This document shows positions 1-13,855 of a stretch of 14,191 bases of DNA, in pieces (within the stretch, counting starts at the first letter, position 1; each line of letters starts with the position of its first letter). The notes below the pieces were generated by a model. That model was not told where the DNA came from, searched no databases, and worked only from the letters and a program-made list of their open reading frames with translations. The stretch lies in IMG/VR virus record IMGVR_UViG_2529292908_000005; one strand, given 5' to 3'. Source of the DNA: a virus. Its lineage: Duplodnaviria > Heunggongvirae > Uroviricota > Caudoviricetes. The translations under genes and the position numbers were made by a program.

Positions 1-1578
1 ACCAGCATCATGCTCAAGGTACCAGGGGGCTCTTCCTGTTTCCTTGGTCAGTTTCATTGCCTTACCCCCGCTGGCTCCGGCATCATCCACGATTTGAGCC
101 TTGCCACCTCCGGCAGCCCAACCCTGTGGTGTCAACCGTCCTTCAGACTCAGATGCCCGGTAAGCAAATAGCGTACTCATCGTCGTGGTGTCTGCGGGTG
201 GCGTGGACGGTTTTGATGGTGTATCAGGTGACGGCTTCTCATCCGGTGGTGTCACGGTCTGCCCGCGCATCAGTTCAGCCGTGCGCCCTGCATGGAGCAT
301 AATAGCTGAGGCCAGACGGTCTGAAATGACGCCCCTGCGTGCCCATGAGCTGAAATGGCTGTCACGCTGTGTCGAAACAAAACTGCCCTGGGTTCGGGAT
401 GCTGCACCGTAATACCCGACAGCCACAATATCCGGGTCTTCCGCCGGAGCATTCGTTGGCGTGCTCTGTCCATTCTCATCCGTCAGGAACGGTACAAAGA
501 AAATTTTCTGTGCTTCCTTGCCTTTGTAGCCACCGTATACTGCCTCATATTTATCGGTGCCAGCGTTTTTCCAGTAATACGTGGTATCACCGCAAATCCA
601 CGGCACCGTGGTGGCATTTCCACTCACGCACTGCGCAGCAAGCGGAGCCAGGTCAGTTCTGAACTGCTGAACCATGGTCGTGAATAAACTATTATGCTGC
701 TGGCTTCCTGAGGCAAGGTCTGCCTCTCCCTGCATCCAGACCACAGCCAGAAGTTTGTTTTTCGGGTTTTTCGCCAGCGCGACTTTGGTGCGGCTTACCA
801 GGTCCTGATACAGAGGTTTACCGGCCCCCCAGCGTGAAGAATCAGCGGAAGCACCGCTGGCCTCACTGAATGAGCCGTCGGCTCCAGTGGTGAATGCTGA
901 CCCGCCACGACAACAGGGCACCAGAAGTATCCCGGCATTCTGTGGGATATAGGGAAGCAGTTTTTGGCAATATGCAACCCCTGACCGACAGTCCCGTACT
1001 GGCCTTTTGCCAGATCAGCTTTCGGGTGGTTTATCCCGCTCATATCCTGAACATCATGCAGGCAGTGGTCCGCCGGAATGATGTCGTTGTATGTACACGA
1101 CGTACCGTTGGGCGTTACCGTACTGCGGCGTGCCAGTTGCTTAATGCGTGGGTCCGGGCGGTCAAACGAATCCGGTAACGGCAGCCCCTCGCCGTAGGCC
1201 ATGCCATTTGACTGACCCGCGAGAATGACAACAAAGTAATATTCCGGCTCTGAACTGCTGCCATTCGTGCTACCGGAAGGCCCGGCGTTATCCGGTGCAT
1301 TCCAGTCGGAGGGCGTGAGCGTTCCGGCCACGTCAGATGTGATTGGAATGATGCCAGTCACGCCTGAACTGGTGATTTCTGCACTGGGATTACCGGATAC
1401 CGGCATTACCCATAATGGCTCTTTCGTGCTGAAGCGGATCACGCAGTCTGCGAAGGTGATCCCCCTTTATTACCCGAAGGGCGGAAGGGCTTTCAATAAA
1501 TGCCACCGTGCCACCGGCAACCTTGACTGAAAACTCTCCGGGCATGGCGGAGAGCATTTTCCACTTGGAGTCTGACAT
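1..1578 (-). pseudogene. nanS: NanS-p-like sialate 9-O-acetylesterase (SASA/SGNH domain) with extra N- and C-terminal regions; frame broken twice; 3' end runs off the window
   Basis: Minus-strand translation gives ...YYFVVILAGQSNGMAYGEGLP... (GQSN motif, ORF 795..1442) and, in the frame open from 960 to 1, ...LLPYIPQNAGILLVPCCRGGSAF...AVVWMQGEADL...GYYGA...; this matches NanS/YjhS-type esterases as recalled. N-terminal piece is ORF 1390..1578. Frame switches sit at C5 (1461-1465) and T5 (961-965). Pro/Thr-rich linker then a further domain towards position 1. Confidence 0.6.
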
Positions 1579-1663
1579 CGTCTTTTCTGCCTGTTTCTGA
1601 ATTAAACAGAGTCAGAATAGCGACCGCTGAAAAATATGTGTTTTGCGGAAATTCAAAAAAGCG

Positions 1664-2236
1664 TCACGGTACTTTTGGTGACGGAGCTGGTGAGGCAGGA
1701 AAATAACGATAAAGGGTGGAAAGGCCAATATCAAATATCAGTGCGATTTGTTTACGGGACTCGCCATTAGCCAGCAAACGGGCGATTTGCTCCCGCTCTT
1801 TCTCTGTCAGTTTCTGAGGTCTGCCGCCATGACGCCCCTGAGCACGGGCAGCAGCAAGACCCGCACGTGTACGTTCAATAATGAGTTCCCGCTCCATTTC
1901 CGCCAGCGCGCCCATTATATGGAAAAAGACACGTCCCATGGGAGTGGATGTATCAATATTGTCCGTAATGCTGCGGAAGTTAACGCCGCGTTGCCGGAGT
2001 TCTTCTGTTAAAAGGACAAGGTGCTGCATACTGCGTCCAAGGCGATCCAGTTTCCAGACCAGCAGGGTATCCCCTGGCCGGAGTCGCTTTAATGCGCGTT
2101 TAAGTCCGGGACGCTCCCTTGTCTTACCGCTTATTCTGTCTTCGAAAAACAGCTCACATCCTGCACATTCCAGCGCATTTCTTTGTAGCGCCGTATTCTG
2201 GTCATTTGTTGACACCCTGATATACCCAATCAGCAT
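1664..2236 (-). CDS. gin: Serine-recombinase DNA invertase (Gin/Pin/Hin/Cin family)
   Basis: 190-aa ORF starting MLIGYIRVSTNDQNT, with catalytic-domain pattern and C-terminal HTH ...LSTLYRYFPAS closely resembling Mu Gin as recalled; AAGGAA SD 5 nt upstream of ATG; start lies 66 bp from the left gix-like site. Confidence 0.95.
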   Translation of the reverse strand: MLIGYIRVSTNDQNTALQRNALECAGCELFFEDRISGKTRERPGLKRALKRLRPGDTLLVWKLDRLGRSMQHLVLLTEELRQRGVNFRSITDNIDTSTPMGRVFFHIMGALAEMERELIIERTRAGLAAARAQGRHGGRPQKLTEKEREQIARLLANGESRKQIALIFDIGLSTLYRYFPASPAPSPKVP

Positions 2237-2301
2237 ACGATTTCCTTATTATAAAAAGCCGGAATTGTCGCATGAGGAATAAAACAGAGTTAATCCTGGC
2301 T

Positions 2302-2327
2302 TTCCTGAAAACCTCGGTTTACGGGAA
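2302..2327. other. gix/hix-like 26-bp invertase crossover site (left)
   Basis: TTCCTGAAAACC|TCGGTTTACGGGAA: two inverted half-sites around a central dinucleotide; right half nearly identical to the Mu gix half-site TCGGTTTACAGGAA as recalled. Confidence 0.8.
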
Positions 2328-2687
2328 ACGGTAAACAGGGCGGCGAATGCTCTGCCATCGGACGGCACCGCCGTTGCCGCGAATAGACTCGCCACCCCAA
2401 GAAATATTAATGGGGTTCCCTTTGACGGGACGCAGGACATAAACATCACTTCTGGTATAACACAGCAGGATGCGGATTCCCGATATATCCAGGATATCAG
2501 GCTGGGAGCAGAGAACAGGCAGGTAATGTACGGTGGGGCATATTACTCTGCGTACGGTAATGTTATGGCAGGCCTGCAGATTGACAGTAAAGTTGATGCT
2601 TCAAAACGATTTTATAGCATTCAGACCCCTGCAAAAATTAGTCGGAGGTACATGGATTACGGTATCTCAGTTATAAATAGTCAGTAA
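2313..2687 (+). CDS. Silent alternative tail-fibre C-terminal cassette (Sv'-like); no start codon of its own
   Basis: Frame open from the left crossover site to TAA 2685-2687, encoding [48 protein letters not shown]...YMDYGISVINSQ. The first ~25 residues repeat the peptide encoded across the right site in the expressed fibre gene, so inversion would fuse this cassette to the constant fibre region. Confidence 0.7.
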   Translation, partial: LGLRETVNRAANALPSDGTAVAANRLATPRNINGVPFDGTQDINITSGITQQDADSRYIQDIRLGAENRQVMYGGAYYSAYGNVMAGLQIDSKVDASKRFYSIQTPAKISRRYMDYGISVINSQ

Positions 2688-2765
2688 ATAATATATTTTA
2701 AAACAGATTTATTTCCAGGAGGATTTTATGGAACTAAAAATATAACCCGTTATTATCCTGAAAAT

Positions 2766-3248
2766 ATGCCATATGGTAATAATGTTCAGTATTTCCAGAG
2801 TGAAGATGGTAAGGATTTCTACGAATCCCTGTCATTATTCACCAAAAAATATAAACTTTGCATAACACCTGACAGCGGCGTTATCTGCTCAATATCACAG
2901 GACGCCTCGGCGCTGTATCCTGCGGGGTTTTCTGTGGTTGAGGTCGATGAACTCCCTGAAGGCACGGATATTTCAGGAAACTGGAAGTTTGATAATGGCA
3001 TAATCTCCCGTATTCCGGTTAACTACGCAAGAAAACTGGAAGCAATGCGCCAGTCATATCTTAATCAGGCATATGAAAAAATTAATGACTGGAGAACGGA
3101 GCTACAACTGGGCACCATCAGCGATGAAGACAGAGCAGCACTTACCCAATGGATGGCATACATCAGTCAGGTGAAGAAAATGGAACTACCCGCCATTAAA
3201 ACAGAAGCTGAATTTAACGCCATTAAATGGCCTGAGCAGCCACAGTAA
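2766..3248 (+). CDS. tfa: Tail-fibre assembly protein (Tfa / Mu U-like chaperone)
   Basis: 160-aa ORF ...YFQSEDGKDFYE...ALYPAGFSVVEVDELPEG...GNWKFDNGIISR...KWPEQPQ, the characteristic Tfa pattern. ATG 2766 has no SD; a stronger start (AGGAGG + ATG 2728) lies upstream in another frame (see findings). Confidence 0.85.
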   Translation: MPYGNNVQYFQSEDGKDFYESLSLFTKKYKLCITPDSGVICSISQDASALYPAGFSVVEVDELPEGTDISGNWKFDNGIISRIPVNYARKLEAMRQSYLNQAYEKINDWRTELQLGTISDEDRAALTQWMAYISQVKKMELPAIKTEAEFNAIKWPEQPQ

Positions 3249-3251
3249 TAA

Positions 3252-3271
3252 AGAAGGCCGGAAGGCCTTCT
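3252..3271. terminator. Hairpin between convergent tfa and fibre genes (probable bidirectional terminator)
   Basis: AGAAGGCC-GGAA-GGCCTTCT: perfect 8-bp GC-rich stem with 4-nt loop, 3 nt after the tfa stop; T-rich run (TTATTACTG) on the minus-strand side. Confidence 0.5.
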
Positions 3272-3385
3272 GAATATCATTATATACTTGCAGCCGTCAC
3301 CCATGCTCCATTTAACAGATACTGCAACGGCCGGTAATACACGCCGCCGACGTTATCTGCCGTATTCTTACCGACATCCTGTACT

Positions 3386-4162
3386 TTAATTCCGGTAAGA
3401 ACATTGCCGCCCCCCCAGATTCAGATCCCAGCTTTCCCATGTTCCGGGCATATGTGCGGTCACCGACCCCAGTCTTATGGCGGTTACTGTTCCTGATGAG
3501 ATAGTGATATCCTGCGTCCCGTCAAAGGGAACACCATTAATTGTGTGGGCATTTGCCAGCCTGTTCGCGGCAACGGCGGTGCCGTCCGATGGCAGGGCAT
3601 TCGCCGCCCTGTTTACCGTTTCCCGTAAACCGACGTTATCGATAAAAGCCCCTTTATCCGGAATGTCTGCGCCGTTCTGCTCCCTGCGCAGGTAACGGTT
3701 ATCACCTTCGCTTTTGCTGTAAACATCCAGATTATTACGGGCGGTTCCCTTATTCTCCAGGTCGGCGAGATTCTGATCCTTCGCCAGGGCATTAACGTCA
3801 CCGGGACCAAGACTGTTTTTTGTGGCAAGCGTCCCCAGACCAAGATAACCACGGGCCAGACGCTGGGCCTCCGCACCGGCATCAGCAATTTCTTTCAGGT
3901 TATTTTTCCGGGAAAAGGCATTCGCAGCGATAATGGCTTTAATGGACAGCGTAAGCTGGTTTAACTGCGCCTTATCCGGCTGAATACTGGCTTCAGCCAG
4001 AATATTCAGCAGTTCGGCCTGGAGAATATTCAGCCAGTCCTGACCAATCCAGCTGATACCTTTTTGTCCGTCACCTTCGGTAAACCAGGTGGTGGTATTA
4101 CTCTGCGCCGGTGCCAGCGCAGGCATATTCGCCACGCCGGAATTATTATCAACATGAAACAT
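3386..4162 (-). CDS. Tail fibre protein (Mu S / P2 H-like): constant N-terminal part plus variable C-terminus inside the invertible segment; C-terminus probably truncated by a frameshift
   Basis: 258-aa ORF with ...[48 protein letters not shown]... crossing the right gix-like site; ATG overlaps the upstream gene stop (TAATG). A C7 tract at 3410-3416 is followed by a stop 8 codons later, while the -1 frame stays open to 3280. Confidence 0.85.
3620..3645. other. gix/hix-like 26-bp invertase crossover site (right, inverted)
   Basis: Reverse complement reads TTATCGATAACG|TCGGTTTACGGGAA; same TCGGTTTACGGGAA half-site as the left site and TTATC...AAC outer half as in Mu gix as recalled; lies inside the fibre coding sequence (encodes FIDNVGLRE). 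Confidence 0.8.
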
Positions 4163-4722
4163 TAAATAGTCTCCTCTTCATGGCTGTTTGCATACACGTA
4201 AATAAACGTCTGCCATGCAGGCTTATAACGGTTCAGAATACATTCCAGCGCACCGCCTTCATAAATACGCAGCGGCGTGAGAATATCATCCAGCACATTC
4301 ATATTCCGGTAGCCGGTTTCACTGTTAATCGTGACAATACTGACCCACTGCGAATCCGGTGAGGGCTGAATGTCAATCTGATAACCAAACTCCGCCGCAA
4401 ACCGGATATAAAATTCACGGTTCAGCGAGGGCTTCATCCGGTATTTATTTCCGGCATAACGCTGTCGCTCCGTGAGGGTGGCTCCGGCCATATCACACTC
4501 GGGAAGCCCGAGATAACGCTCCCAGTCTTCCAGCAGCAGGCGCGACGTGTCAGGGAAACGCTCGGCAAGCAGCTGTTTACCCGTCCAGGATACACGCGCT
4601 GTCGAATGACTGAGGCCCAGACATAATGATGCCAGTACGGATGACGGACGCTTGTCCCATGCCAGCCCGTCAGGCAGTAACTGCAACAGGGCGCGCTGAT
4701 GCGGGGTCAGGGTTACAGCCAT
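4162..4722 (-). CDS. Phage tail protein, DUF2313 / Mu gp48 / YmfQ-like
   Basis: 186-aa ORF in the conserved slot between baseplate J and tail fibre; start overlaps the J stop region and its stop overlaps the fibre start; composition and position match the gp48/YmfQ family as recalled. Confidence 0.75.
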
Positions 4723-5795
4723 GTGATTTCTCCTACCGTCAGCAGCTCACTGTCTCCCGCCTGAACTGACGTCAGCGGACTGCGCACTTCAAAATCCTCC
4801 AGATTTTTCACCCCTGCCACCGCCCGCCAGAAAGACGACGGCAGAACCAGACCGCCGGGCCGGGATTCGTTATACAACAGGTCGGTCAGCGCCTGTTTTA
4901 CGGCCGCCTGATTCTCCGGTGTTTTCGGGATGATCCTGATGCTGAAGGGCACCGGCTTATTGGTCAGTTTAAACACGGTCACCGTCGGCCCCAGAGGCTG
5001 TCCGACAGGCTGGCCGGTCGCCGGATCATCATGACTGCGGATATAATCCGCCACCCGCTGAACATCACCGTCACCGGGGAAAATATCCGGGTTATTATCC
5101 TGAACAAACGTTACCCCCACGCTGCCCGCCTGCGGCCATTCCGGGCGGCACCATGCCCGCGTCACGCCCGGCACTTCACGCGCCCAGCGTTCAAAATCAT
5201 ACTGCGTGCCGCCGGACGGTGGATTCTGCACCCGGAAAACCAGACGGGAAAGCAGCTCCGGCACGGTTTCCACATCCGCACCACCGGTGATCCCCGTTCC
5301 GGTCACCGTGGACGTCTGGTTGATCCCCGCCTGCGGTGTGATAAATGTCAGTTTTGTCCCTGCCGGGGCATTCCCCGCACGACCGGCACTTTCGGCTTCC
5401 ACACTGACATTCAGCGTACCGGCCTTACCGGTCAGGGAGGTGGTGATACGGTAAACCACGCCATCACTTCGCTGGAGAAGCACACCTTCCTTGATCCCCG
5501 CATCCGTGGTCAGCATCAGCTGAACCGGCCCGTCCCCCCGAGAGGCAGGCTTACGCATGACGCCCCAGAATGCACAGTGTTTCAGCAGTTCGGCTTCATC
5601 GGCTTCGGTCGGGATGATCTGACGCGCAATCCAGGCCAGATGCTCATGCTCCTGAGCAGATAACCCTGCCTGAGCGTAAGCAATGGCATTCAGGGTGGTT
5701 TCATTCACACCCGGCTGCGAGCCGGGCAGGCGCTGGCTGATATCCTGCTGTGTCTGCGTGATTAACTGTGCCAGCGGTAAAGGCTGATAAGGCAT
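4713..5795 (-). CDS. Baseplate J-like protein (Mu gp47 / P2 gpJ family)
   Basis: ORF-track frame 4713..5837 starts at TTG; a better start is ATG 5793-5795 (MPYQPLPLAQ...) with a GGG-containing SD. Translation shows the J-family layout (...ADEAELLKH.AFWGV.RK.A..A.G...GGADVE...) recalled from P2 J. Confidence 0.85.
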   Translation of the reverse strand: MPYQPLPLAQLITQTQQDISQRLPGSQPGVNETTLNAIAYAQAGLSAQEHEHLAWIARQIIPTEADEAELLKHCAFWGVMRKPASRGDGPVQLMLTTDAGIKEGVLLQRSDGVVYRITTSLTGKAGTLNVSVEAESAGRAGNAPAGTKLTFITPQAGINQTSTVTGTGITGGADVETVPELLSRLVFRVQNPPSGGTQYDFERWAREVPGVTRAWCRPEWPQAGSVGVTFVQDNNPDIFPGDGDVQRVADYIRSHDDPATGQPVGQPLGPTVTVFKLTNKPVPFSIRIIPKTPENQAAVKQALTDLLYNESRPGGLVLPSSFWRAVAGVKNLEDFEVRSPLTSVQAGDSELLTVGEITWL

Positions 5796-5954
5796 TAACC
5801 CTGTTCGATAAGGGGCTGATTTCCCGTGAGGAGGCAATACATATTATCAATCTCGCTCAAAAAAACTCTACCCCGGAAAATGCAGAAGATATCCAGGATG
5901 GCTCATATATTAATACCGACTGGCATTTCGACAATCTCCGGGCCTGTATGGGGA

Positions 5955-6242
5955 TTACCGCTGAAAAAGATTAAAAATTTTTGCATAATGTTCAGATGTA
6001 AGAATTGCTGAACCATCAACACCGAGCCTGCGGCGAACGTATTCCTCGCGGGCTATTTTATTATCCAGAGATACAGCATCCTTAATCAGGTTAATCTCCC
6101 GCTCCATTATCAAAAGGGCTTCTCTGGCTGCAAGATTTTCTTTTATCGCATATTCGATAATGTCCCGCATACGTTCAAGCATGCCGATTTTAGCCAGTTC
6201 TTCGTCGATAGATTTAGGCGCAAATTTGATTTCTTTTTCCAT
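5955..6242 (-). CDS. Hypothetical protein, predicted all-helical, encoded in AT-rich DNA
   Basis: ORF-track 5955..6257 (GTG start); preferred start ATG 6240-6242 (MEKEIKF...) with GAGGA SD 8 nt upstream, 1 nt after the stop of the upstream zinc-ribbon ORF; markedly lower GC than neighbours. Confidence 0.5.
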   Translation of the reverse strand: MEKEIKFAPKSIDEELAKIGMLERMRDIIEYAIKENLAAREALLIMEREINLIKDAVSLDNKIAREEYVRRRLGVDGSAILTSEHYAKIFNLFQR

Positions 6243-6243
6243 A

Positions 6244-6387
6244 TTATTCATCCTCACAATTTATACATGCAGTGTCGTCGCCCATATCGCAGTGGTTACA
6301 TTTTATCTCACCACAATGTGGGCACTCTTTCAGATACTCCGGGTCCTCATTTCCACAGGTGGGACATTCAACAATTTGCTCATCCAT
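6244..6387 (-). CDS. Small 4xCxxC zinc-ribbon protein (47 aa), not in the ORF track
   Basis: ATG 6385-6387 to TAA 6244-6246 translates MDEQIVECPTCGNEDPEYLKECPHCGEIKCNHCDMGDDTACINCEDE: four CxxC pairs in 47 residues; AGGGGA SD 7 nt upstream; start overlaps the stop of ORF 6380..6712 (ATGGATGA). Confidence 0.5.
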   Translation of the reverse strand: MDEQIVECPTCGNEDPEYLKECPHCGEIKCNHCDMGDDTACINCEDE

Positions 6388-6712
6388 TATGTATCCCCTG
6401 TAATTCCGGCAAGGCCGAAAGATGGCACCAGTGCGTCACCTGTCCGTCCTCATCTTCAAGGCAGGCTCCGGTTTCTTCATCAATAAAAAAGCCTTCATAC
6501 CCCATATGGCCGATGCGCAGTTCCTGTTGGTCACCATACTGAACAATCAGCACGACAGCCTCCATATCAGGCGGAAATGCGTCATCCAGTGAATGCCAGG
6601 GATAACCGCGCAAATCCCCGAAATAAACGCCGGTCAGCGTTCCGCCACAGAGCGGCATTCCGGCGGCACACACAAGAGGTTCATCTGATTCAACAAATAA
6701 GGTCGTTATCAT
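6380..6712 (-). CDS. Hypothetical protein (110 aa)
   Basis: ORF with ATGA start/stop overlap to the upstream gene at 6709-6712; acidic C-terminal half; no family recognised. Confidence 0.55.
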   Translation of the reverse strand: MITTLFVESDEPLVCAAGMPLCGGTLTGVYFGDLRGYPWHSLDDAFPPDMEAVVLIVQYGDQQELRIGHMGYEGFFIDEETGACLEDEDGQVTHWCHLSALPELQGIHNG

Positions 6713-7260
6713 GGCGTTAACTCCCGTAATACAGCGTCCTCGGCAGTCCGGCGACGGTAATAAACTGCGTGAGCAGAATGTTCAGATATTCCAAACTTTT
6801 CGCCAATTTCCCGGAATGACAGACGGCGTGGGTAATCGGAATCACGCAGCGCACGTATAAGACGTACATCATCATCAGATATGCGCGTGCCGGGGCGTAA
6901 CTCTCCGCACTTTGTTAATCCAGCACCAATCATTCCTGCCCGACATCTGACAGAATCTTTATTACGTCCGAGATATTCTCCCATTTGCTGGCAGGTCATT
7001 GTTCTGGCATTTTTTCGAATAAACTTATCTTCATCAGGTGTAAATCTTGGGTGTTTATATTTCAGTAACTCCGGGTATGAACTGCGCAATACACCAGTCC
7101 GGTTATATACAGCCCAGACAGTTCTTTTTATTCTGGCAGCAATATCCTTAACCGGGGTGGATGAATAAAGCGCAATCAGTAGCGCATCTTCTTCAGGTGT
7201 CCACGCGCGGACATGAGCGGGTGTACGACCTTTTCGCCCCATGGGTTGTAATTTCATCAT
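6709..7260 (-). CDS. Putative DNA-binding protein with tandem Myb/SANT-like HTH repeats
   Basis: 183 aa; repeats ...RAWTPEEDALLIALYS...IAARIKRTVWAVYNRTGVL and ...RFTPDEDKFIRKNARTMTCQQMGEYLGRNKDSVRCRA, plus a third weaker HTH-like segment; strong AGGGGGTGA SD; start 3 nt after the upstream stop. Confidence 0.6.
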   Translation of the reverse strand: MMKLQPMGRKGRTPAHVRAWTPEEDALLIALYSSTPVKDIAARIKRTVWAVYNRTGVLRSSYPELLKYKHPRFTPDEDKFIRKNARTMTCQQMGEYLGRNKDSVRCRAGMIGAGLTKCGELRPGTRISDDDVRLIRALRDSDYPRRLSFREIGEKFGISEHSAHAVYYRRRTAEDAVLRELTP

Positions 7261-7263
7261 GCA

Positions 7264-7779
7264 TCACCCCCTGACTCGCTTTTCAGCAGCATAAAACTCA
7301 TCAGACAGTATTTCGGTCATTTTCTGTTTTGCGGGTTTTACGCCGCACTGAAGGTAAATCACATCGTCAACGCAGAACCACTTCACAGGGCCAAACAGGA
7401 TTGCCGAGAAATCAATACCCAGCCAGAACAACAGCGCATCGGTTCTGGCATACGTGACGGGTGAATATTCACGCCACAGACTGTTCAGTTCATCAGAGGC
7501 AACACGCAGGGTTTTAGGGATACGTGATGTGCGCGGTGTGCAGCTCCAGCCATTCGACGCAGTCGGTTTTCGCCATAAGTCGCGATGAAAAGGATATTTG
7601 TCCTCCGTAAAACGCAGTCCCTTAAAGCAAAATCCACTGATACCGGATACAAATACCGACCGGCACGCAACATTCAGCACGGCCTCAAGGCGTTTTGCCT
7701 CATCCTTAACTTTCTGGCAGTCCTGCTGGTATTTTTGCCACGCAGCCAGCGCGGAAGGGTTTGATGTTTTAAAGAACAT
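7264..7779 (-). CDS. Hypothetical early-region protein (171 aa)
   Basis: ORF whose ATG shares a nucleotide with the upstream stop (TAATG at 7777-7781); no family recognised. Confidence 0.55.
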   Translation of the reverse strand: MFFKTSNPSALAAWQKYQQDCQKVKDEAKRLEAVLNVACRSVFVSGISGFCFKGLRFTEDKYPFHRDLWRKPTASNGWSCTPRTSRIPKTLRVASDELNSLWREYSPVTYARTDALLFWLGIDFSAILFGPVKWFCVDDVIYLQCGVKPAKQKMTEILSDEFYAAEKRVRG

Positions 7780-8312
7780 TACGCCACCTCCGCAGATATC
7801 CCGGCAGGCGCTGCTGTCCGGTCAACAATCAGGTAGCGCAGAACATGTTCAGTGATATTCCAGCCGCTTAAACCGCAGATAATGACGCCCAGGCGTATGT
7901 CGATATACGCCATCACAAACTGGGGCACGCCTTCTTTCATGGCCTGCTCATCAACTTCAGCCACCACATAAACGGTTTCACAGGTCAGAACGCCCTGAGC
8001 AAATTCCCACGCCATCGACGGAATATCATGCCCCTCAATCCATGGCAGGGATTTTCTGAAGCCGCACCACTGAACATCATCAGCCGCAGATTCCTGGCTG
8101 CATTTGCGACGAACCGGCTGCACCGGGCGGGGGCGCGGAATATCATAAAAACCGTTACATTCCGTCAGCACGCCTGCATCAACCGCATCACGCAGAAAAT
8201 AAACCATGGAGGATGGCGGCATATTCATTTTTTCAGCCAGTACACCGCAGGTCAGGCGGCCATAAATACGCAGCCAGTTTTTAACCCCTTCAAGCACTTT
8301 TGCATCAATCAT
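7779..8312 (-). CDS. Hypothetical early-region protein (177 aa)
   Basis: ORF with GGGGAAA SD 7 nt upstream of ATG 8310-8312; first gene after the 145-bp AT-rich gap downstream of gam; no family recognised. Confidence 0.55.
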   Translation of the reverse strand: MIDAKVLEGVKNWLRIYGRLTCGVLAEKMNMPPSSMVYFLRDAVDAGVLTECNGFYDIPRPRPVQPVRRKCSQESAADDVQWCGFRKSLPWIEGHDIPSMAWEFAQGVLTCETVYVVAEVDEQAMKEGVPQFVMAYIDIRLGVIICGLSGWNITEHVLRYLIVDRTAAPAGISAEVA

Positions 8313-8457
8313 GATTTATTTCCCCACCACATTATTAATGACGATATAAACGTATTTCATATTTCTTAACCCTTATTTTCTGTTTTCAGGCGCAAGCAGT
8401 CCCCTGACGCGAGCGCCATAATTAAAATGAAGTGATATTTAATTGATTAATGCGGTG

Positions 8458-8988
8458 TTATTTATTCAGTCCGGCGTCCTGTTCAAAAGGCTCGACATAA
8501 AAACTTTCAGCGCCTTTATTCACCTTGATACCGGCAATGCCTTTCACAGCATCCGGCTCCGCCAGGACGGCTTCCTTGTTCACTTCCTCTTTCGTGCGGA
8601 TGAAACGCTCAAGCCCCATACGGCGCAGCATTTCAATCACACCTTCCACATCACGGCTGACGCTGCATGATGGCGTTCCCAGCCGCCATGACACCGTTCC
8701 GGTGGTCAGATTGGCTGTTTTGGTTTTGCCGCCGTTCGTCAGCTCATCACGGTTGGTTTTGCACCAGTCCTGAATCCCTTTAAAAAGCACTTTGATTTGC
8801 TTTTTAAGATTTTCAATCTGCGGCGTATAACGGGCGGTGATTTCTGCCACTTCGTCATTCATCGCCGTTTCCAGGCGCAGCGCCTCTCGCTGAATATCTC
8901 CCAGGGTGCGGATATCACGGCTGACTTCTTCCCGGGTCTGCGGTGCCGCCTCGGCTGCGGCCTTTAATTTTGTAACGCGTTTAGCCAT
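8458..8988 (-). CDS. gam: Gam-like host-nuclease inhibitor (Mu Gam family, DNA-end binding)
   Basis: 176-aa ORF MAK...DIRTLGDIQREALRLETAMNDEVAEI...DWCKTNRDELTNGGKTKTANLTTGTVSWR...ERFIRTKEEVNKEAVL...EPFEQDAG, co-linear with Mu Gam as recalled; AGGA SD. Confidence 0.9.
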   Translation of the reverse strand: MAKRVTKLKAAAEAAPQTREEVSRDIRTLGDIQREALRLETAMNDEVAEITARYTPQIENLKKQIKVLFKGIQDWCKTNRDELTNGGKTKTANLTTGTVSWRLGTPSCSVSRDVEGVIEMLRRMGLERFIRTKEEVNKEAVLAEPDAVKGIAGIKVNKGAESFYVEPFEQDAGLNK

Positions 8989-8999
8989 TTTGTTTTTCC

Positions 9000-9293
9000 T
9001 TATTGCAGTGTGCCTGATGCTTTATGCACGCGGTGGCGTTTAATGATGGCATCCGCTCCAAAAGACTGTGCAGATGCCTGAAATTCCGCTGAGAGAAACT
9101 GAATAATTGCAGGACTGTGATACTGGAGAATACTTGCATAAACGTCACAGAGTGACGTCGGCCTGTTATCCGTATCACGTTCTGTTTTTACATCCACACC
9201 AATCTTTTCATGCACTTCAACACTGTCATTGCCTGCCGGTTTTTCGTCATGCGAAACATGCTCAAATTCAAAAATAACGCGTACTTTGCTCAT
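9000..9293 (-). CDS. Hypothetical small early protein (paralogue 1 of a tandem pair)
   Basis: ORF-track 9000..9320; preferred start ATG 9291-9293 (MSKVRVIFEFEHV...) with GGGG SD, 4 nt after the upstream gene stop; N-terminus parallels the upstream gene (MSKVVRIIFEYKE...). Confidence 0.55.
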   Translation of the reverse strand: MSKVRVIFEFEHVSHDEKPAGNDSVEVHEKIGVDVKTERDTDNRPTSLCDVYASILQYHSPAIIQFLSAEFQASAQSFGADAIIKRHRVHKASGTLQ

Positions 9294-9297
9294 GGAA

Positions 9298-9570
9298 TTA
9301 CCCCTGCTGATTAAATTCATTACCGTTAATAACCCCGGAAGCCATGCCTCTGTCTTTCATGAATGCACTGGCTTTCATTGCCACAAACTCTGCGAAGTTT
9401 CTGCTTTCTGCCAGCATAACCACCCCAAAAATCATGGCGGGTCCATTATCTTTCTTCTTTATTCCGGTTGAACGTATATCCAGACTTACCCCTCTGTGCG
9501 TGCTGCCATCAGAGTTTTTGCAGATAACATCTTCCTTGTATTCGAAAATAATGCGTACGACTTTACTCAT
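9298..9570 (-). CDS. Hypothetical small early protein (paralogue 2 of a tandem pair)
   Basis: 90-aa ORF MSKVVRIIFEYKEDV...; 4-nt start/stop overlap with the upstream gene. Confidence 0.55.
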   Translation of the reverse strand: MSKVVRIIFEYKEDVICKNSDGSTHRGVSLDIRSTGIKKKDNGPAMIFGVVMLAESRNFAEFVAMKASAFMKDRGMASGVINGNEFNQQG

Positions 9571-9848
9571 CCTCTGGTCCTCGTTCTGTTTGGATAACTG
9601 ACCCGGCGTCTAACCTCACGGCAGAACCGAATCATGGCATTAAAGGCTTCTTCCTCCGTCACCGCTTCCGGTATCCCAGGAACCAGTAGCTGTTCCTGTT
9701 CATCGCGTCCATGACGCGCCATAACCTCAATCACATGCCGTACCGTGGCAGGCTTTCCGGCAACTATCGGCAATGCACCTTCCGGCAGGACGTAACCAAA
9801 CTCAATAAGACCACTCGACCACGCCCATGCAATGAGATTTCGTTTCAC
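9567..9848 (-). CDS. Hypothetical small early protein (93 aa)
   Basis: ORF packed between neighbours in the B-to-gam interval; no family recognised. Confidence 0.5.
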   Translation of the reverse strand: MKRNLIAWAWSSGLIEFGYVLPEGALPIVAGKPATVRHVIEVMARHGRDEQEQLLVPGIPEAVTEEEAFNAMIRFCREVRRRVSYPNRTRTRG

Positions 9849-9849
9849 C

Positions 9850-10116
9850 TCACACCTCCCAGTAAACCGTGCAGCCGCTGATGCGGGTGGCCTTCACACG
9901 GCGGCGCAGGCCGTTGGTCTGTATGGTGATTTCAATTTCACCGGTTCCCTGCACGTTGCCTACCGGCGGCGTGGTTTTCAGTGCAAAACGTTGCGGATAG
10001 CGCTTACTGCGTTCCAGTACCGCACCGGCAAGTTCGGTCAGACGGCGCGCGCTGTTCAGGGAGTCGAATAAATTCATTTTGTTACCGCAGGATTGCATAT
10101 TCATATAACACCTCAT
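9850..10116 (-). CDS. Hypothetical small early protein (start ambiguous: ATG at 10116, 10104, 10098 or 10077)
   Basis: ORF directly following the upstream stop (TAA ATG); several in-frame ATGs, GAGGTG SD-like element before 10104/10098; sits where kil-type genes lie in Mu, but no sequence recognition. Confidence 0.45.
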   Translation of the reverse strand: MRCYMNMQSCGNKMNLFDSLNSARRLTELAGAVLERSKRYPQRFALKTTPPVGNVQGTGEIEITIQTNGLRRRVKATRISGCTVYWEV

Positions 10117-10338
10117 TTAGCTGACTTGTTTCGCACCAACAGAACGGCATATTCCGCTGTAAACTTCTGTCGCACCTTCGCGATCAAGTCCGGCAGATAT
10201 CACCATTCGTGTGCGGTCATTAAATTCAAAAAGTAAATCGCCACATTCTTTATTTTCGGCCAGTGAAATCACCTTCACGTTATCGAAATTAACCAGGTAA
10301 AAGCGTCCGTAAATATCAGGAATATTAAATACCGCCAT
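10117..10338 (-). CDS. Hypothetical small early protein (73 aa)
   Basis: ORF-track 10117..10344 (GTG); ATG 10336-10338 with AGGTG SD 5 nt upstream is preferred; begins 2 nt after the B stop. Confidence 0.5.
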   Translation of the reverse strand: MAVFNIPDIYGRFYLVNFDNVKVISLAENKECGDLLFEFNDRTRMVISAGLDREGATEVYSGICRSVGAKQVS

Positions 10339-10340
10339 AA

Positions 10341-11273
10341 TCACACCTGTGAGAGTAATTCAGGGTTGGTATAAACCTCTTTAAAGGCCGCATTAATATG
10401 TTTTTCTGTCAGCGCCGCGCCTTCACCGCTGGCGGTGAGCCACGCCTGGTTAAGCGTATGTGTCAGAACGCGTAACGCTCCCGGCTTTTCAGCGATAGCC
10501 TGCATGACGGCCAGCTCGGCCTCACCACTGATACCCCATGCCCTGGCAATGGCCAGCACATCCGCCTTTTTGGCCTTGCGAAGTTGTTTTGTACGGGCAA
10601 GACGGCTGAACAGGCGCGATAAATCATCAAAGGCGCGGCGTCCACCTTTAAACAATCCGCGCGGGTTACCAATAAGCACCATCCCGATCCCCGTGGCGTC
10701 CTGAATTGCCCGGAGTTGCTCCAGACCGTCAATACCAAGATGATCCGCCTCATCCACAATCACCAGTCCACGCGTTCCCGTCAGGCGACGGCGGATGGCG
10801 CGGGATAATGCCCCTTTGTTCGCGCGGGTGTAATCAATCCCCAGCGCATCGGCCAGCTCCAGCAGACACTCCGTGACGCTGGAGTGCGCGGGTGACAGGG
10901 TGATCATCCAGGTGTTTGGTTGCTCCTGGCAGTAATTACGGGCAGTGGCCGTTTTACCCACACCCGGTACGCCCACAATAACGTTAATACAGCCCATCAG
11001 GCGAACCGCCTGAAACAGTGCGCGCAGCTCCTGGACTGTCTGAGTTTCCACAAACTGCGGCGGTTCCGGCAGTGCGCTTTGTTTATTCCAGTTCTCATAC
11101 CAGGAGCGCAGGGAAGCAGCCACAGCGGCGTTATCGCCTTTATATTTCCCCTTGCGGAAAGCCGATAATGTGCCGTCGGAAATTCCCGCCTCTCTGGCGA
11201 TGGCATACTGCGTCAGCACGCCGCCATCAATAAGTTCATCAATGGTCTTGATTACATCGTTTATATCGGTCAT
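10341..11273 (-). CDS. B: MuB-like transposition target-capture protein (AAA+ ATPase)
   Basis: 310-aa ORF with Walker A VGVPGVGKTATARNY, ...LVIVDEADHLG..., N-terminal HTH-like region, and co-linearity with Mu B as recalled (...GDN..V...L..W...PEPP.FVETQTV...KPGALR.L...); GAGG SD; directly downstream of the transposase. Confidence 0.92.
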   Translation of the reverse strand: MTDINDVIKTIDELIDGGVLTQYAIAREAGISDGTLSAFRKGKYKGDNAAVAASLRSWYENWNKQSALPEPPQFVETQTVQELRALFQAVRLMGCINVIVGVPGVGKTATARNYCQEQPNTWMITLSPAHSSVTECLLELADALGIDYTRANKGALSRAIRRRLTGTRGLVIVDEADHLGIDGLEQLRAIQDATGIGMVLIGNPRGLFKGGRRAFDDLSRLFSRLARTKQLRKAKKADVLAIARAWGISGEAELAVMQAIAEKPGALRVLTHTLNQAWLTASGEGAALTEKHINAAFKEVYTNPELLSQV

Positions 11274-11312
11274 ATTATTACCTCGCGTTTGTGTAGTTCC
11301 TTTGTTTAATCA

Positions 11313-11348
11313 AATAACCTGAGTCGCCGCTCGGGTTATTTTTTATTT
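11313..11348 (+). terminator. Stem-loop plus T-tract in the A-B intergenic region; reads as an intrinsic terminator on the strand antisense to A/B
   Basis: AATAACCTGAG-TCGCCG-CTCGGGTTATT (11-bp stem with one G-U pair on the plus-strand RNA) followed by TTTTATTT; on the sense (minus) strand the stem has a C-A mismatch and a weaker U-tract. Confidence 0.35.
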
Positions 11349-13438
11349 CAGGCCAGAGGGTCATTTTCTTTTAATTTCGCTTCAAGCAGCTGCAATCCCC
11401 GCTGGAAATTACGCTCGTATTCTTCATCAGGTTCATCGTCAGCGACCGGTTGCTGAACGATCACCGTATTACCCACAGGGCGGTATATATTTTCCAGCCA
11501 CGGCTCCTGTGGCTTGTGCTCCAGCACGTTGACAATCTCATCCTCGGCATCACGGATTTTTTCCTCTGCGCGTTTACGCATGCCTTTAAGGCGCTGCTGC
11601 TGTTTGTGGTATTCCGCGCTGACCGGGAAGGCTTCGCGTTTATTGCCGTCCCATACCGCCTCGCAAATCACGCTGCCATCCGGGCGACGTACGGTAATTC
11701 GTTCGGCATCATGAATGTCATAGCTGATAAGCACCTTACGACCATGCTCGTCACGCAGCTCGGGCGCGTAGTAAATATTATTCAGCCAGCGTATTTCACA
11801 GCGTCTTACAGGGCGTTCCACCATCGGCCGGAACATATCCCGCAGCTCAACATCGGACAGCCATTCAATTTCCGTGTCCTCTTCCGCCAGGCGTTTTTTT
11901 CTGAACTCCGCCGGGCTGTAATGCTTGCCGTTCGGCTTCACCGGTAATTCATCGTGCGGCCGGTTGTTGTACCACTCAACACCATCACGAATGGCATCAA
12001 TCAGTTCAGCCCAGGACGGTAAATCACGCATCGCTGACTGCTGCCGGGCGTTCAGCCGTTTGCCCTGTTGCAGGGCAGTAAATGCCGAGCGTAAATCGCG
12101 GTTGGTTTTGCGTAACGTCTCGCGATCTGCACCTTTCCCGAAATAGGTGCGGTATTTACGGGCTATGCGCATCGGTAATGTGCGGTTAAGCCGTTCGATA
12201 ATGCCTCGTCCCTGCGGATTACCGGCAATCCCGGTCGGGTGATTAATCCCCAGTCGCGGCAGTATCCCCACAACCTCCTTATCCAGGATGTCGGCGGTTT
12301 CCCCGGAGCCGTTATCCGAGTAATACAGAAACGGTTTGCCGTGATGGCGAATGCCGTGCTGTATGGCACCGGCTACGGCGAAAACATTTTCAGCCAGGTC
12401 AAGGCTCCAGCCCACCACAAAGCGCGTGCCACCGTCGATAACAAAGGTCACTTCCGGTGCAAATGGCCGACCGTGAACCGGGTGTGCGCATTTCAGCTTC
12501 ATGCCGTGACCGTCACCAATCCAGACATAATTCACCGGCATTTTTGACCAGTCGCGGCGCGTGAATCCCTCAAGCTGGCGGTATTCACTGCCGGTCACCC
12601 GGCCTTTTTGTTTCACCACTTCCGGCAGTTTCTTCATTGCGCGGCGAATGGTGTCATAAGACGGCATGATATCGAGCATATAAGGCTCATCAGCGTGCCG
12701 GTGCTGCCATTCAGCAACAAAATCCTCGTAAGCCTCGGTCATTGGTCGGCCGTTTGACTGGCGATACTGCGCCAGAAATTCGGGCAGCCAGTTAATATCT
12801 TCGGCTTTTATTTCCTGGCGCTTACCCGGTGCCAGTAAAAGCAGGCGTTCAGCGGCGTTCTGCGCCTTGTTAAAGGCCGCAATCCAGCGTTTCAGCGTGA
12901 TTTCACTTAACGCGCGGCTGTTTCCCTTTTTGGCGTTCGCCGTCTCAACCATTGCCACAATGCGCTCGTCCAGCTGCGAACGTGCCAGGTTGTCAACGAT
13001 AAACCGGATAGCCTTCGCACAGCTGAAACCAGGTTGTTGCGCGACTTTCAGCACCTCGCTGACGATCGCGATTCGTGCATCAGCCACCTGGCGCTGGTTT
13101 TCAGTCAGGGCATTAAGGCGTTCAACCATCAGTTGTGGTGATCCGCGATATGCCTCCACCGCATCAACCACGGCAGGCGAGCGTCTGGCCTTTGTCACCA
13201 CTGGAGCCGGTGATTCATCGACTTTTTGAGTCATCAGTTGCAGGGCGTAGCGTTCACGTAATGCCTGCTGCGTCACTTCAGGTAAACAGTCGATGCTGTA
13301 TTCAGTTGCTTTAGAGCCTGAGCGACGACGGGAACAACAGCTTTTCCCTTGTACGTAACGTTGTAATGCCTGGCGAATACCTTTTGTTGTAGCAGGCATT
13401 CCGGGCGCGCCAATCAGTTCTTTTGCAATGACATACAT
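11348..13438 (-). CDS. A: Mu-type DDE transposase (MuA-like)
   Basis: 696-aa ORF of MuA size, immediately between ner-like and B-like genes; start 1 nt after the ner stop (TGATATG); internal ...YVWIGDGHGMKLKC... core region. Assignment rests mainly on size and conserved ner-A-B synteny. Confidence 0.9.
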   Translation of the reverse strand: MYVIAKELIGAPGMPATTKGIRQALQRYVQGKSCCSRRRSGSKATEYSIDCLPEVTQQALRERYALQLMTQKVDESPAPVVTKARRSPAVVDAVEAYRGSPQLMVERLNALTENQRQVADARIAIVSEVLKVAQQPGFSCAKAIRFIVDNLARSQLDERIVAMVETANAKKGNSRALSEITLKRWIAAFNKAQNAAERLLLLAPGKRQEIKAEDINWLPEFLAQYRQSNGRPMTEAYEDFVAEWQHRHADEPYMLDIMPSYDTIRRAMKKLPEVVKQKGRVTGSEYRQLEGFTRRDWSKMPVNYVWIGDGHGMKLKCAHPVHGRPFAPEVTFVIDGGTRFVVGWSLDLAENVFAVAGAIQHGIRHHGKPFLYYSDNGSGETADILDKEVVGILPRLGINHPTGIAGNPQGRGIIERLNRTLPMRIARKYRTYFGKGADRETLRKTNRDLRSAFTALQQGKRLNARQQSAMRDLPSWAELIDAIRDGVEWYNNRPHDELPVKPNGKHYSPAEFRKKRLAEEDTEIEWLSDVELRDMFRPMVERPVRRCEIRWLNNIYYAPELRDEHGRKVLISYDIHDAERITVRRPDGSVICEAVWDGNKREAFPVSAEYHKQQQRLKGMRKRAEEKIRDAEDEIVNVLEHKPQEPWLENIYRPVGNTVIVQQPVADDEPDEEYERNFQRGLQLLEAKLKENDPLA

Positions 13439-13439
13439 A

Positions 13440-13688
13440 TCATGACGCCTTTCTCATATAGCTCTTAACCTGGTATCGACTGGGCCAGATTTCTTCAGGC
13501 GATACCCCAAGAGCATCAGCAATTATTTGCTGATACGGTCGGCAAGGAGTACGTAATACGCTTTTCAGCGAATCCCTGCTGTAACCAGCCTTTAAAGATA
13601 AAGAGCGCAGTGATAAGCCAGCCATGTGTAAGCGCGCCTTGATGATTTCAGGCGGCCAATCGTGATCTGAAACTTCTCTTCTACTCAT
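13440..13688 (-). CDS. ner: Ner-like DNA-binding regulator (Ner/Nlp family)
   Basis: 82-aa ORF ...DWPPEIIKARL...GLSLRSLSLKAGYSRDSL...QQIIADALGVSPEEIWPSRY..., co-linear with Mu Ner / E. coli Nlp as recalled; first gene of the early operon, divergent from the repressor. Confidence 0.88.
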   Translation of the reverse strand: MSRREVSDHDWPPEIIKARLHMAGLSLRSLSLKAGYSRDSLKSVLRTPCRPYQQIIADALGVSPEEIWPSRYQVKSYMRKAS

Positions 13689-13855
13689 ACTTCCTCTATT
13701 CTAAAAAGTTACCCGCGCGGATATTCGTGCGGATATCTGTACGGGTAAATAATAGAACAAGCAAAAGAACCAAATCAAGGTATTTTGTTCTTTTTATTCT
13801 TTGCGGTGTTTTTGTTATTAATATCAATAAGATAAATAAAAAGGAACCTGAGAGC
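13689..13855. promoter_or_regulatory. Divergent early promoter/operator region between ner and the repressor gene
   Basis: 167-bp AT-rich intergenic region. Direct repeats GCGGATAT at 13717-13724 and 13729-13736 nested in inverted arms TTACCCG (13709-13715) / CGGGTAA (13742-13748). Candidate leftward promoter: -35 TTGATT (13773-13778) and -10 TATTAT (13749-13754), 18-bp spacer. AAGGAA SD for the repressor at 13841-13846. Confidence 0.5.

What the first reader, a model, noticed from the sequence alone, without database searches (positions are those of the whole stretch)
5796..6387. AT-rich junction block between the early operon and the baseplate J start
J keeps what looks like its native N-terminus and SD, yet the expected upstream baseplate gene is absent. 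Instead there is a 159-bp AT-rich gap and two small genes (95-aa helical protein and 47-aa zinc ribbon) in DNA of visibly lower GC than either flank. This looks like the deletion scar and/or an acquired insert, and is a plausible place for an accessory function.
Basis: partly seen in the sequence, partly recalled or inferred. Interest (0 to 1): 0.4.

Follow-up and report, generated by a model that had tools for sequence, protein, structure and literature searches.

The report
Deletion scar in defective Mu-like prophage
The low-GC block is ordinary early-region DNA of a Mu-like E. coli prophage (homologues of phage Mu genes 13 and 14 plus a stump of a small opposite-strand gene); its left edge is the joint of a 21-kb deletion that removed the head, tail and lysis genes, and it is not an insert acquired at that joint.

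Summary
Window 5796-6387 has GC 0.424, against 0.596 in J and 0.514 in the early operon. Its left edge is an exact deletion joint. In the intact E. coli HH35 prophage (99.8-99.9% identical near the joint), J-side homology ends at window 5797 and early-side homology begins at 5796. The joint is a 2-bp TA overlap and 21,144 bp are missing: gemA, the Mor-family activator, lysis, head, tail and baseplate genes through gp46.

The block was not acquired at the scar. Intact prophages carry the same DNA in the same place. The 47-aa protein matches Mu gp13/E14 (88% identity over 41 aa) and the 95-aa protein matches Mu gp14/E15 (49%). The 159-bp "gap" is the 3' part of a convergent 79-aa ORF that lost its first 61 nt.

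The block is one of at least two alternative low-GC cassettes in a variable slot before gemA; the cassette's right boundary is at 6395/6396. J keeps its ATG and N-terminus but lost its native Shine-Dalgarno sequence.

The same joint occurs in four other NCBI assemblies, so it is real and inherited. The function of gp13/gp14 remains unknown. This is ordinary prophage decay and of low interest.

The parts
4713..5795 (-). Baseplate J / Mu gp47-family gene (360 aa). It is complete from its native ATG but has lost its native ribosome-binding site and the upstream gp46 gene.
   Evidence: Pfam Baseplate_J, E = 3.6e-62. One residue differs from HH35 J. Native and present upstream sequences are compared.
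5796..5797 (.). Deletion joint. The 2-bp TA is shared by both parental sequences, and 21,144 bp of an HH35-type prophage are missing here.
   Evidence: J-side homology runs to window 5797. Early-side homology starts at 5796. Base-by-base three-way comparison. Record coordinates are 585761 and 606904 of NZ_CP136993.2.
5796..5974 (+). 3' remnant (last 58 codons plus stop) of a convergent 79-aa ORF (WP_001280088-type, phrog_32893). Its first 61 nt and its upstream region were deleted. The 68-aa ORF 5768-5974 is a fusion artefact of this remnant with antisense J sequence.
   Evidence: Full ORF annotated in HH35 and four other relatives. PHROG match E = 1.3e-45. The ORF is open in five relatives, with 13 of 25 variable sites at codon position 3. 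Frameshifted versions exist in public data, so whether it functions is doubtful.
5955..6242 (-). 95-aa all-helical protein, a homologue of phage Mu gp14 (formerly E15). It is the last gene of the early operon that remains.
   Evidence: 49% identity to Mu gp14, E = 1e-30. phrog_6075, E = 5e-44. 16 of 22 variable sites at codon position 3. AF2 model pLDDT 86, four helices.
6244..6387 (-). 47-aa protein with four CxxC motifs, a homologue of phage Mu gp13 (formerly E14). Its start overlaps the stop of the 110-aa gene (ATGGATGA), and its stop lies 1 nt before the 95-aa start.
   Evidence: 88% identity over 41 aa to Mu gp13, E = 2e-27. phrog_5584, E = 3e-26. All eight Cys are conserved in five relatives. 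PGAP does not annotate it in the E. coli genomes.
5796..6395 (.). Surviving part of a 759-bp low-GC mosaic cassette (HH35 locus L001 8843-9601). It fills the variable slot between the 110-aa gene and gemA. The right boundary at 6395/6396 is an old recombination joint.
   Evidence: Most related prophages match only from window 6396 onward. HH35 compared with SJ7 and DLI.5a. The alternative cassette encodes unrelated proteins. GC is 0.418 for this cassette and 0.421 for the alternative.
6380..6712 (-). 110-aa early gene (phrog_6925). It is conserved on the upstream side of the cassette, and its 3' end contains the cassette boundary.
   Evidence: PHROG match E = 2e-51. Annotated in all relatives.

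Best explanation
The window is the inside of a defective Mu-like prophage of E. coli (contig AIFX01000029.1, assembly GCA_000249635.2). A single 21,144-bp internal deletion joined two points by illegitimate recombination at a 2-bp TA overlap, with no IS element and no long repeat. One point is inside a small convergent ORF just past the end of the early operon. The other is 2 nt upstream of the baseplate J start codon.

The deletion removed gemA, the Mor-family late activator, the lysis genes, all head and tail-shaft genes and the baseplate genes through gp46.

The low-GC block 5796-6387 is native phage DNA. It holds the last two early-operon genes, which are homologues of Mu gp13 and gp14, plus the stump of the convergent ORF. 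Its low GC reflects a mosaic cassette in a variable slot of the Mu semi-essential early region, not an insertion at the scar.

Inferred, not shown: the element can no longer form particles or lyse the host. J, gp48 and the fibre genes have lost their Mor-family activator, the Mu-C-type late regulator (whether a C-dependent late promoter lay in the deleted DNA was not tested). They could be transcribed only by read-through from the early promoter after derepression. gp13 and gp14 are small early accessory proteins whose targets are unknown.
For: - Joint: homology to 13 complete E. coli genomes starts exactly at window 5796. Homology on the J side ends at 5797 in 228 records. The three-way base comparison shows the switch at TA.
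- Parent structure: in HH35 the two sides lie 21.1 kb apart, with the full Mu-type gene set between them. The window is collinear with HH35 on both sides, at 99.76% and 98.1% identity.
- Native genes: Mu gp14 49% identity, E = 1e-30. Mu gp13 88% identity, E = 2e-27. Mu gene order is gp12-gp13-gp14-Mu_54-gemA. PHROG families 6075 and 5584. The starts and stops are tightly packed, as read from the sequence.
- Cassette: boundaries at L001 8842/8843 and 9601/9602. The alternative cassette is unrelated in protein sequence and equally low in GC.
- Reality of the joint: the exact 32-mer occurs in two IMG/VR contigs. The junction-specific 68-aa ORF occurs in five NCBI assemblies, including the window's own, and one of the others has the same host flank. 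Sequence around the joint is identical among them.
- No IS element or significant repeat at the joint.
Against: - The deletion endpoint lies within 2 nt of a start codon. By my rough estimate that has a chance below 1% for a random endpoint, so selection on the fusion cannot be excluded from one event.
- The mechanism (illegitimate recombination) is inferred only from the 2-bp overlap and the absence of repeats.
- Nothing here tests transcription, translation of J from the new context, or any activity of gp13/gp14.
- The true parent is unknown. HH35 is only the closest intact relative, and the early side is 98.1% identical with a different immunity region beyond window 13319. The deleted length therefore refers to an HH35-type parent.
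Confidence: 0.93

Rival explanations
1. The low-GC block is foreign DNA, a moron or accessory cassette, inserted at or together with the deletion.
For: GC is 0.424, against 0.514 and 0.596 in the flanks. Only 13 of 233 related E. coli records carry this block. The block has sharp homology boundaries.
Against: The same DNA (99.9% identical) sits in the same place in intact prophages that still have gemA, lysis and morphogenesis genes downstream. Its two genes are homologues of Mu gp13 and gp14 in Mu's own order. The alternative cassette in the same slot is just as low in GC. The cassette exchange and the deletion are therefore separate events.
Confidence: 0.03
2. The joint is an assembly artefact, a chimeric or collapsed contig in a draft genome that carries more than one Mu-like prophage.
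For: The source is a draft assembly. Three of the other contigs with the joint break about 400 nt into J and a fourth breaks only about 50 nt from the joint, which suggests repeat-induced fragmentation. The c gene in the window has a 1-nt homopolymer difference that could be a sequencing error.
Against: The identical joint occurs in five separate NCBI assemblies. Assemblers do not join sequences on a 2-bp overlap. In the source contig the joint lies 5.8 kb from the contig end and is continuous with 125 kb of chromosome.
Confidence: 0.02
3. The fusion is selected. Joining the J start codon precisely to the end of the early operon puts J, gp48, the tail fibre and the G segment under early-promoter control, or preserves a useful early or late module in a domesticated element.
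For: The endpoint lies 2 nt from the J ATG. A GGG stretch three bases upstream of the ATG could serve as a weak ribosome-binding site. No terminator-like site was found in 5400-6800. The allele persists in at least five assemblies. Three other independent deletions in this family also keep both ends.
Against: J, gp48 and the fibre have no known role without the rest of the baseplate. The other three deletion alleles have different endpoints, two of which remove or truncate J or gp48. What is shared is therefore loss of morphogenesis genes, not a J fusion. In the two assemblies with flanks the allele sits at one chromosomal site, as expected for clonal inheritance.
Confidence: 0.03

Closest known systems
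Phage Mu gp13 (E14) and gp14 (E15), genes of unknown function in the semi-essential early region (AF083977)
   Same: The gene order is the same: gp12-like, then a zinc-ribbon protein, then a helical protein of about 100 aa, all before gemA. Identities are 88% over 41 aa and 49% over 94 aa. DNA identity is 72% over window 6022-6369.
   Different: The N-terminus of the zinc-ribbon protein differs, and the protein is 47 aa against 60 aa. Mu follows gp14 with the co-directional Mu_54. This cassette instead has a convergent 79-aa ORF.
Intact Mu-like prophage of E. coli HH35 (NZ_CP136993.2, about 578-616 kb)
   Same: It is 99.76% identical over window 1-5797 and 98.1% over 5796-13319. It carries the same cassette with the same three ORFs.
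   Different: HH35 still has the 21,144 bp between the two points. Its immunity region (ner and c) differs beyond window 13319.
Other internally deleted prophages of the same family: E. coli JMF1 (IS903B at the joint), DLI.5a and TOE17
   Same: All have lost head and tail morphogenesis genes. All keep c, ner, A and B on one side and the fibre, gin, DUF6645 and com/mom end on the other.
   Different: The endpoints and mechanisms differ. JMF1 has an IS903B at the joint. DLI.5a joins DUF2730 to a truncated gp48. TOE17 retains the baseplate genes. DLI.5a and TOE17 carry the alternative cassette.
Laboratory mini-Mu elements, which are internally deleted Mu derivatives that keep both ends and A/B (from my own knowledge, not tested here)
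   Same: It is an internal deletion that keeps apparently intact transposase A (696 aa) and B (310 aa) genes.
   Different: The prophage ends lie outside the window and were not examined. Nothing suggests mobility: the two assemblies with flanks share one insertion site.

Membership tests
Mu gp14 / E15 family (phrog_6075) | Significant full-length sequence similarity to Mu gp14 | tested here: met
   BLASTP 49% identity over 94 of 95 aa, E = 1e-30. phrog_6075 E = 5.4e-44, profile positions 1-95 of 100.
Mu gp14 / E15 family (phrog_6075) | Position immediately after the gp13 homologue and before gemA in the early operon | tested here: met
   The order in Mu is shown. The order in the intact relatives HH35, 2012EL-2448, SCU-106, NCCP 13963 and OkiPb01696 is shown. 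In the window itself gemA is deleted.
Mu gp13 / E14 family (phrog_5584) | Sequence similarity, including the four CxxC motifs | tested here: met
   88% identity over 41 aa, E = 2e-27. phrog_5584 E = 3.1e-26. All Cys are conserved in five relatives. Pfam zinc-ribbon models match only below their thresholds.
Mu gp13 / E14 family (phrog_5584) | Metal binding | not testable with these tools
   Inferred only from the eight Cys arranged as CxxC pairs.
Baseplate J / Mu gp47 (PF04865) | Pfam Baseplate_J domain above the gathering score, followed by a gp48 gene | tested here: met
   210 bits against a cut-off of 21.1. The downstream gene hits Phage_Mu_Gp48.
Mu-like transposable prophage | Ner, transposase A, ATPase B, Kil, Gam and gp11/gp12-like early genes in Mu order | tested here: met
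   Precomputed Pfam hits on the source contig are Mu-transpos_C, Phage-MuB_C, Kil_protein, Phage_Mu_Gam, Gp11_C and Phage_Mu_Gp12. Gp11_C also hit. Annotation of relatives.
Mu-like transposable prophage | Complete late and morphogenetic gene set, meaning a functional phage | tested here: not met
   gemA, the Mor-family activator, lysis genes, terminase, portal, head, tail sheath and tube, tape measure and baseplate genes through gp46 are absent.
Microhomology-type illegitimate deletion | Both flanks are contiguous with distant points of an intact relative, with only a few bp of overlap and no IS or long repeat | tested here: met
   2-bp TA overlap. No repeat of note and no IS in 5500-6700. The enzymatic mechanism itself cannot be tested here.
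Known anti-phage defence or RNA families | A match to PADLOC, NCBIfam or Rfam models | tested here: not met
   PADLOC gave no hits. NCBIfam gave nothing near its cut-offs. Rfam gave no hits in the whole window.

The most novel reading that the evidence does not exclude
The gp13/gp14 cassette and its alternative form a swappable early host-takeover or counter-defence slot of Mu-like phages. Alternatively, or in addition, the deleted element is retained in its E. coli lineage because the early operon, now fused directly to J, gp48 and the fibre genes, gives some benefit. If so, the precise ATG joint would not be a coincidence.
Probability: 0.05. Interest if true: 0.4.

Novelty: already known. 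Interest (0 to 1): 0.1.

Why it matters
It matters little beyond annotation.

- It fixes the deletion breakpoint to the base.
- It shows that the element cannot form particles or lyse, although it still encodes apparently intact transposition genes.
- It corrects the idea of an insert at the scar.

Two modest by-products may be useful.
- The slot between the 110-aa gene and gemA is a mosaic, low-GC cassette site with at least two unrelated fillings, which makes it a reasonable place to look for Mu accessory functions.
- The conserved 47-aa gp13 homologue is missed by PGAP in every E. coli genome inspected.

Tried and rejected
- **Function of the 95-aa protein.** Pfam, NCBIfam and PADLOC gave nothing. 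A PDB sequence profile search gave nothing below E = 0.06. The AF2 model (pLDDT 86, four helices) had no Foldseek match below E = 0.4 in the PDB or below E = 1.5 in BFVD. The family is tiny, with 20 representative clusters among 1.84 billion proteins and 8 clusters at 90% identity, all E. coli.
- **Literature.** Two full-text searches on the Mu semi-essential early region found nothing about E14 or E15.
- **RNA elements.** Rfam gave no hit in the window.
- **Terminators and promoters in 5400-6800.** No terminator-like site was found, and the single promoter-like match is below the number expected by chance.
- **Repeats or IS at the joint.** Only chance-level 13-nt repeats and weak 19-26-nt inverted repeats were found.
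- **Is the convergent ORF a membrane peptide?** Maximum Kyte-Doolittle hydropathy is 1.27 over 19 residues, which I judged too low to call a transmembrane helix. I dropped the idea.
- **Junction searches.** The junction 32-mer was absent from the species-representative genomes and from JGI metagenomes. No complete E. coli genome among the 5,426 carries the joint.
- **Is the alternative cassette a diverged allele of gp13/gp14?** No. BLASTP gave E = 0.59 and E = 1.6.

Full report
**What the window is**

All long ORFs lie on the minus strand, in the order of phage Mu:
- a partial c repressor on the plus strand (13727-14191)
- ner (13440-13688)
- transposase A (11348-13438, 696 aa)
- ATPase B (10341-11273, 310 aa)
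- several small early genes, including a Kil homologue
- gam (8458-8988)
- gp11-like (7779-8312) and gp12-like (7264-7779)
- a 183-aa SANT/Myb-like protein (6709-7260)
- a 110-aa protein (6380-6712)
- the 47-aa and 95-aa ORFs of the finding
- then, directly, baseplate J (4713-5795), gp48 (4162-4722), a tail fibre gene, an invertible segment with a tail-fibre assembly gene, a Gin-type recombinase (1664-2236) and a DUF6645 protein.

These identities rest on Pfam, PHROGs, RefSeq annotation of near-identical prophages and precomputed Pfam hits on the source contig. The window is identical to the first 14,191 nt of contig AIFX01000029.1 of assembly GCA_000249635.2.

**Checking the observation**

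The coordinates are right.
- J starts at the ATG at 5795.
- 5796-5954 (159 bp) has no minus-strand gene.
- The 95-aa ORF is 5955-6242 and the 47-aa ORF is 6244-6387.
- GC of 5796-6387 is 0.424. J is 0.596 and the early operon 6388-13438 is 0.514. Only 5.6% of all 592-bp windows are as low, and none within the early operon is.
- Individual small early genes elsewhere are similarly low, at 0.417-0.436.

Two details do not hold.
- The "gap" (GC 0.453) is less AT-rich than either small gene, and it is not empty.
- The ribosome-binding site of J is not native (see the next section).

**The joint**

A megablast of 5600-6800 against 5,426 complete E. coli genomes found 13 records covering more than 80% of the query. 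Every one of them begins to match at query base 197, which is window 5796. A megablast of 4700-5960 found 228 records, and every one listed stops matching at window 5797.

In E. coli HH35 (NZ_CP136993.2) the two matching points lie at record positions 585761 and 606904. The stretch between them holds, in order from the early side: the start of the small convergent ORF, gemA (gp16 family), a Mor-family activator, lysozyme and other lysis genes, TraR/DksA, DUF2730, a gp27-family protein, a 1,665-nt gene annotated as hypothetical (terminase-sized), a DUF935 gene (portal-like), a minor head protein, virion morphogenesis genes, tail assembly, tape measure, a DNA circularization protein, and baseplate genes through gp46.

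A base-by-base comparison shows the switch. The J side reads ...AAGGCATTA|CTCCCCC. The early side reads ...TATGG|TAACCCTG. The window reads ...AAGGCATTAACCCTG. The overlap is 2 bp (TA), and 21,144 bp of an HH35-type parent are missing. No IS element and no meaningful repeat lies at the joint. I therefore infer an illegitimate, microhomology-type deletion.

The window is otherwise collinear with HH35, at 99.76% identity over 1-5797 and 98.1% over 5796-13319.

On the coding strand, the native J upstream sequence is CTTAAGGGGGAGTAATG. The window now reads GAACAGGGTTAATG. J keeps its start codon and its N-terminus, with 1 difference in 360 aa, but it has lost its Shine-Dalgarno sequence.

**Is the joint real?**

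- The exact 32-nt junction sequence occurs in two IMG/VR contigs.
- The 68-aa ORF that exists only because of the fusion (5768-5974, plus strand) is recorded in five NCBI assemblies: GCA_000249635.2 (the window's own), GCA_000704465.1, GCA_000704485.1, GCA_000704505.1 and GCA_012373615.2.
- One of these, L015, extends into the same host flank as the source contig, a KefB-like antiporter gene, at 99.76% identity.
- Differences among the copies cluster in gam and B. All copies are identical around the joint.

The joint is therefore a real, inherited allele sitting at one chromosomal site. It is neither an assembly artefact nor evidence of mobility.

**What the block is**

- *47-aa protein.* It is 88% identical over 41 aa to Mu gp13, formerly E14.
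- *95-aa protein.* It is 49% identical over 94 aa to Mu gp14, formerly E15.
- *DNA identity to Mu.* About 72% over window 6022-6369.
- *Gene order.* Mu has gp12-gp13-gp14-Mu_54-gemA. Intact E. coli relatives have 110-aa gene, zinc ribbon, 95-aa gene, convergent 79-aa ORF, gemA.
- *Packing.* The zinc-ribbon start overlaps the stop of the 110-aa gene, and its stop lies 1 nt before the 95-aa start.
- *Coding signal.* Across five relatives, variable sites fall mainly at third codon positions: 16 of 22 in the 95-aa gene and 6 of 9 in the 47-aa gene. All eight cysteines are conserved.
- *Annotation gap.* PGAP does not annotate the 47-aa gene in any of the E. coli records inspected.

**The 159-bp "gap"**

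It is the 3' part of a plus-strand ORF that is annotated as a 79-aa protein in the intact relatives (WP_001280088 and variants; phrog_32893, E = 1e-45). The deletion removed its first 61 nt and everything upstream of it. The ORF converges on the 95-aa gene and overlaps it by 20 bp.

The evidence that it is a working gene is mixed.
- For: it is open in all five relatives, the other five frames are closed by stops, and 13 of 25 variable sites are at codon position 3.
- Against: codon differences between HH35 and NCCP 13963 run 11 nonsynonymous to 6 synonymous, and several frameshifted versions exist in public data.

**Why the GC is low**

Most related E. coli prophages match the window only from 6396 onward. 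Comparing HH35 with SJ7 and DLI.5a places the boundaries of a 759-bp cassette at L001 8843 and 9601. The second boundary corresponds to window 6395/6396.

In SJ7, DLI.5a and TOE17 the same slot holds three or four unrelated small co-directional genes in place of this cassette.

GC is low whichever cassette fills the slot:
- 0.418 for the HH35 cassette
- 0.421 for the SJ7 cassette
- 0.462 for Mu gp13-gp14

Neighbouring genes run 0.51-0.55.

Its right edge is an old module-exchange joint and its left edge is the recent deletion. The two events are unrelated, because intact phages already carry the cassette.

**Function**

I could not assign a function to gp13 or gp14.
- Pfam, NCBIfam and PADLOC gave no match for the 95-aa protein. 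For the 47-aa protein, Pfam gave only sub-threshold zinc-ribbon matches and NCBIfam and PADLOC gave nothing.
- A PDB sequence profile search gave nothing below E = 0.06.
- The AF2 model of the 95-aa protein is confident (pLDDT 86) and has four helices. It has no significant structural neighbour in the PDB or BFVD.
- The family is very small: 20 representative clusters among 1.84 billion proteins.
- Two literature searches found nothing on these genes.

From established knowledge of Mu, these genes lie in the semi-essential early region, which the phage can lose and still grow. My best inference is that they are small accessory proteins made early from the early promoter. That is an inference, not a result.

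**Consequences of the deletion (inferred)**

- Without a terminase-sized gene, a portal-like gene, head and tail genes, lysis genes and the Mor-family activator, the element cannot make particles or lyse the cell.
- J, gp48 and the fibre genes have lost their activator.
- No terminator-like site was found in 5400-6800, so these genes could be reached only by read-through from the early promoter.
- J would then be translated from a weak ribosome-binding site.

**A curiosity**

The deletion endpoint lies 2 nt from a start codon. By my rough estimate a random endpoint has well under a 1% chance of doing that. Three other independent deletion alleles of this family (JMF1 with IS903B, DLI.5a, TOE17) have quite different endpoints, two of which remove or truncate J or gp48. 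I therefore treat the precise fusion as coincidence. I give about 3% to the narrow selected-fusion reading, and about 5% to the broader novel reading that also includes an accessory role for the cassette.

**Verdict**

The "acquired insert" part is wrong. This is ordinary decay of a Mu-like prophage, and every component belongs to an already catalogued, though uncharacterised, phage gene family.

Noticed in passing
window 14146-14191, compared with L015 8467-9051: The c repressor gene in the window has a 1-nt shorter A-run than the otherwise near-identical copy in GCA_000704465.1, which encodes an intact 194-aa protein. The difference shifts the frame about halfway through the gene and gives a stop at 14189-14191, exactly at the window end. 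It could be a homopolymer sequencing error or a real inactivation. A real one would be surprising with A, B and kil apparently intact.
   Followed up: partly
L004 (JMF1), L005 (DLI.5a), L013 (TOE17), against the window: There are four independent internal deletions in the same Mu-like prophage family. Each removes head and tail morphogenesis genes, and each keeps c-ner-A-B on one side and the fibre, gin, DUF6645 and com/mom end on the other. One has an IS903B at the joint.
   Followed up: partly
window 2298-2440 and 3507-3650: These are 143-bp inverted repeats (87% identical) that bound the invertible tail-fibre (G-type) segment next to the Gin-type recombinase gene (1664-2236). E. coli DLI.5a carries the segment in the opposite orientation.
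   Followed up: partly
window 6244-6387; L001 9448-9584 and the equivalent gaps in L008-L011: RefSeq/PGAP leaves the conserved 47-aa Mu gp13 homologue unannotated in every E. coli genome inspected. All of them show an empty interval of about 137 bp there.
   Followed up: yes
window 8527-8605 and 10485-11345, against L006/L016 and L015: Differences between copies of the deleted element are tightly clustered in gam and in B, and are not spread evenly. This suggests gene-conversion patches from other Mu-like prophages rather than gradual divergence.
   Followed up: no
window 2551-2850 and 13651-13950: Two other patches have lower GC than the finding, at 0.337 and 0.373. One lies inside the invertible segment near the tail-fibre assembly gene. 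The other lies in the ner-c regulatory region.
   Followed up: no
L008 690-1387 (E. coli 2012EL-2448): In this relative an IS1A sits between gemA and the convergent 79-aa ORF. The short stretch upstream of that ORF is thus hit by insertions as well as by deletions.
   Followed up: no
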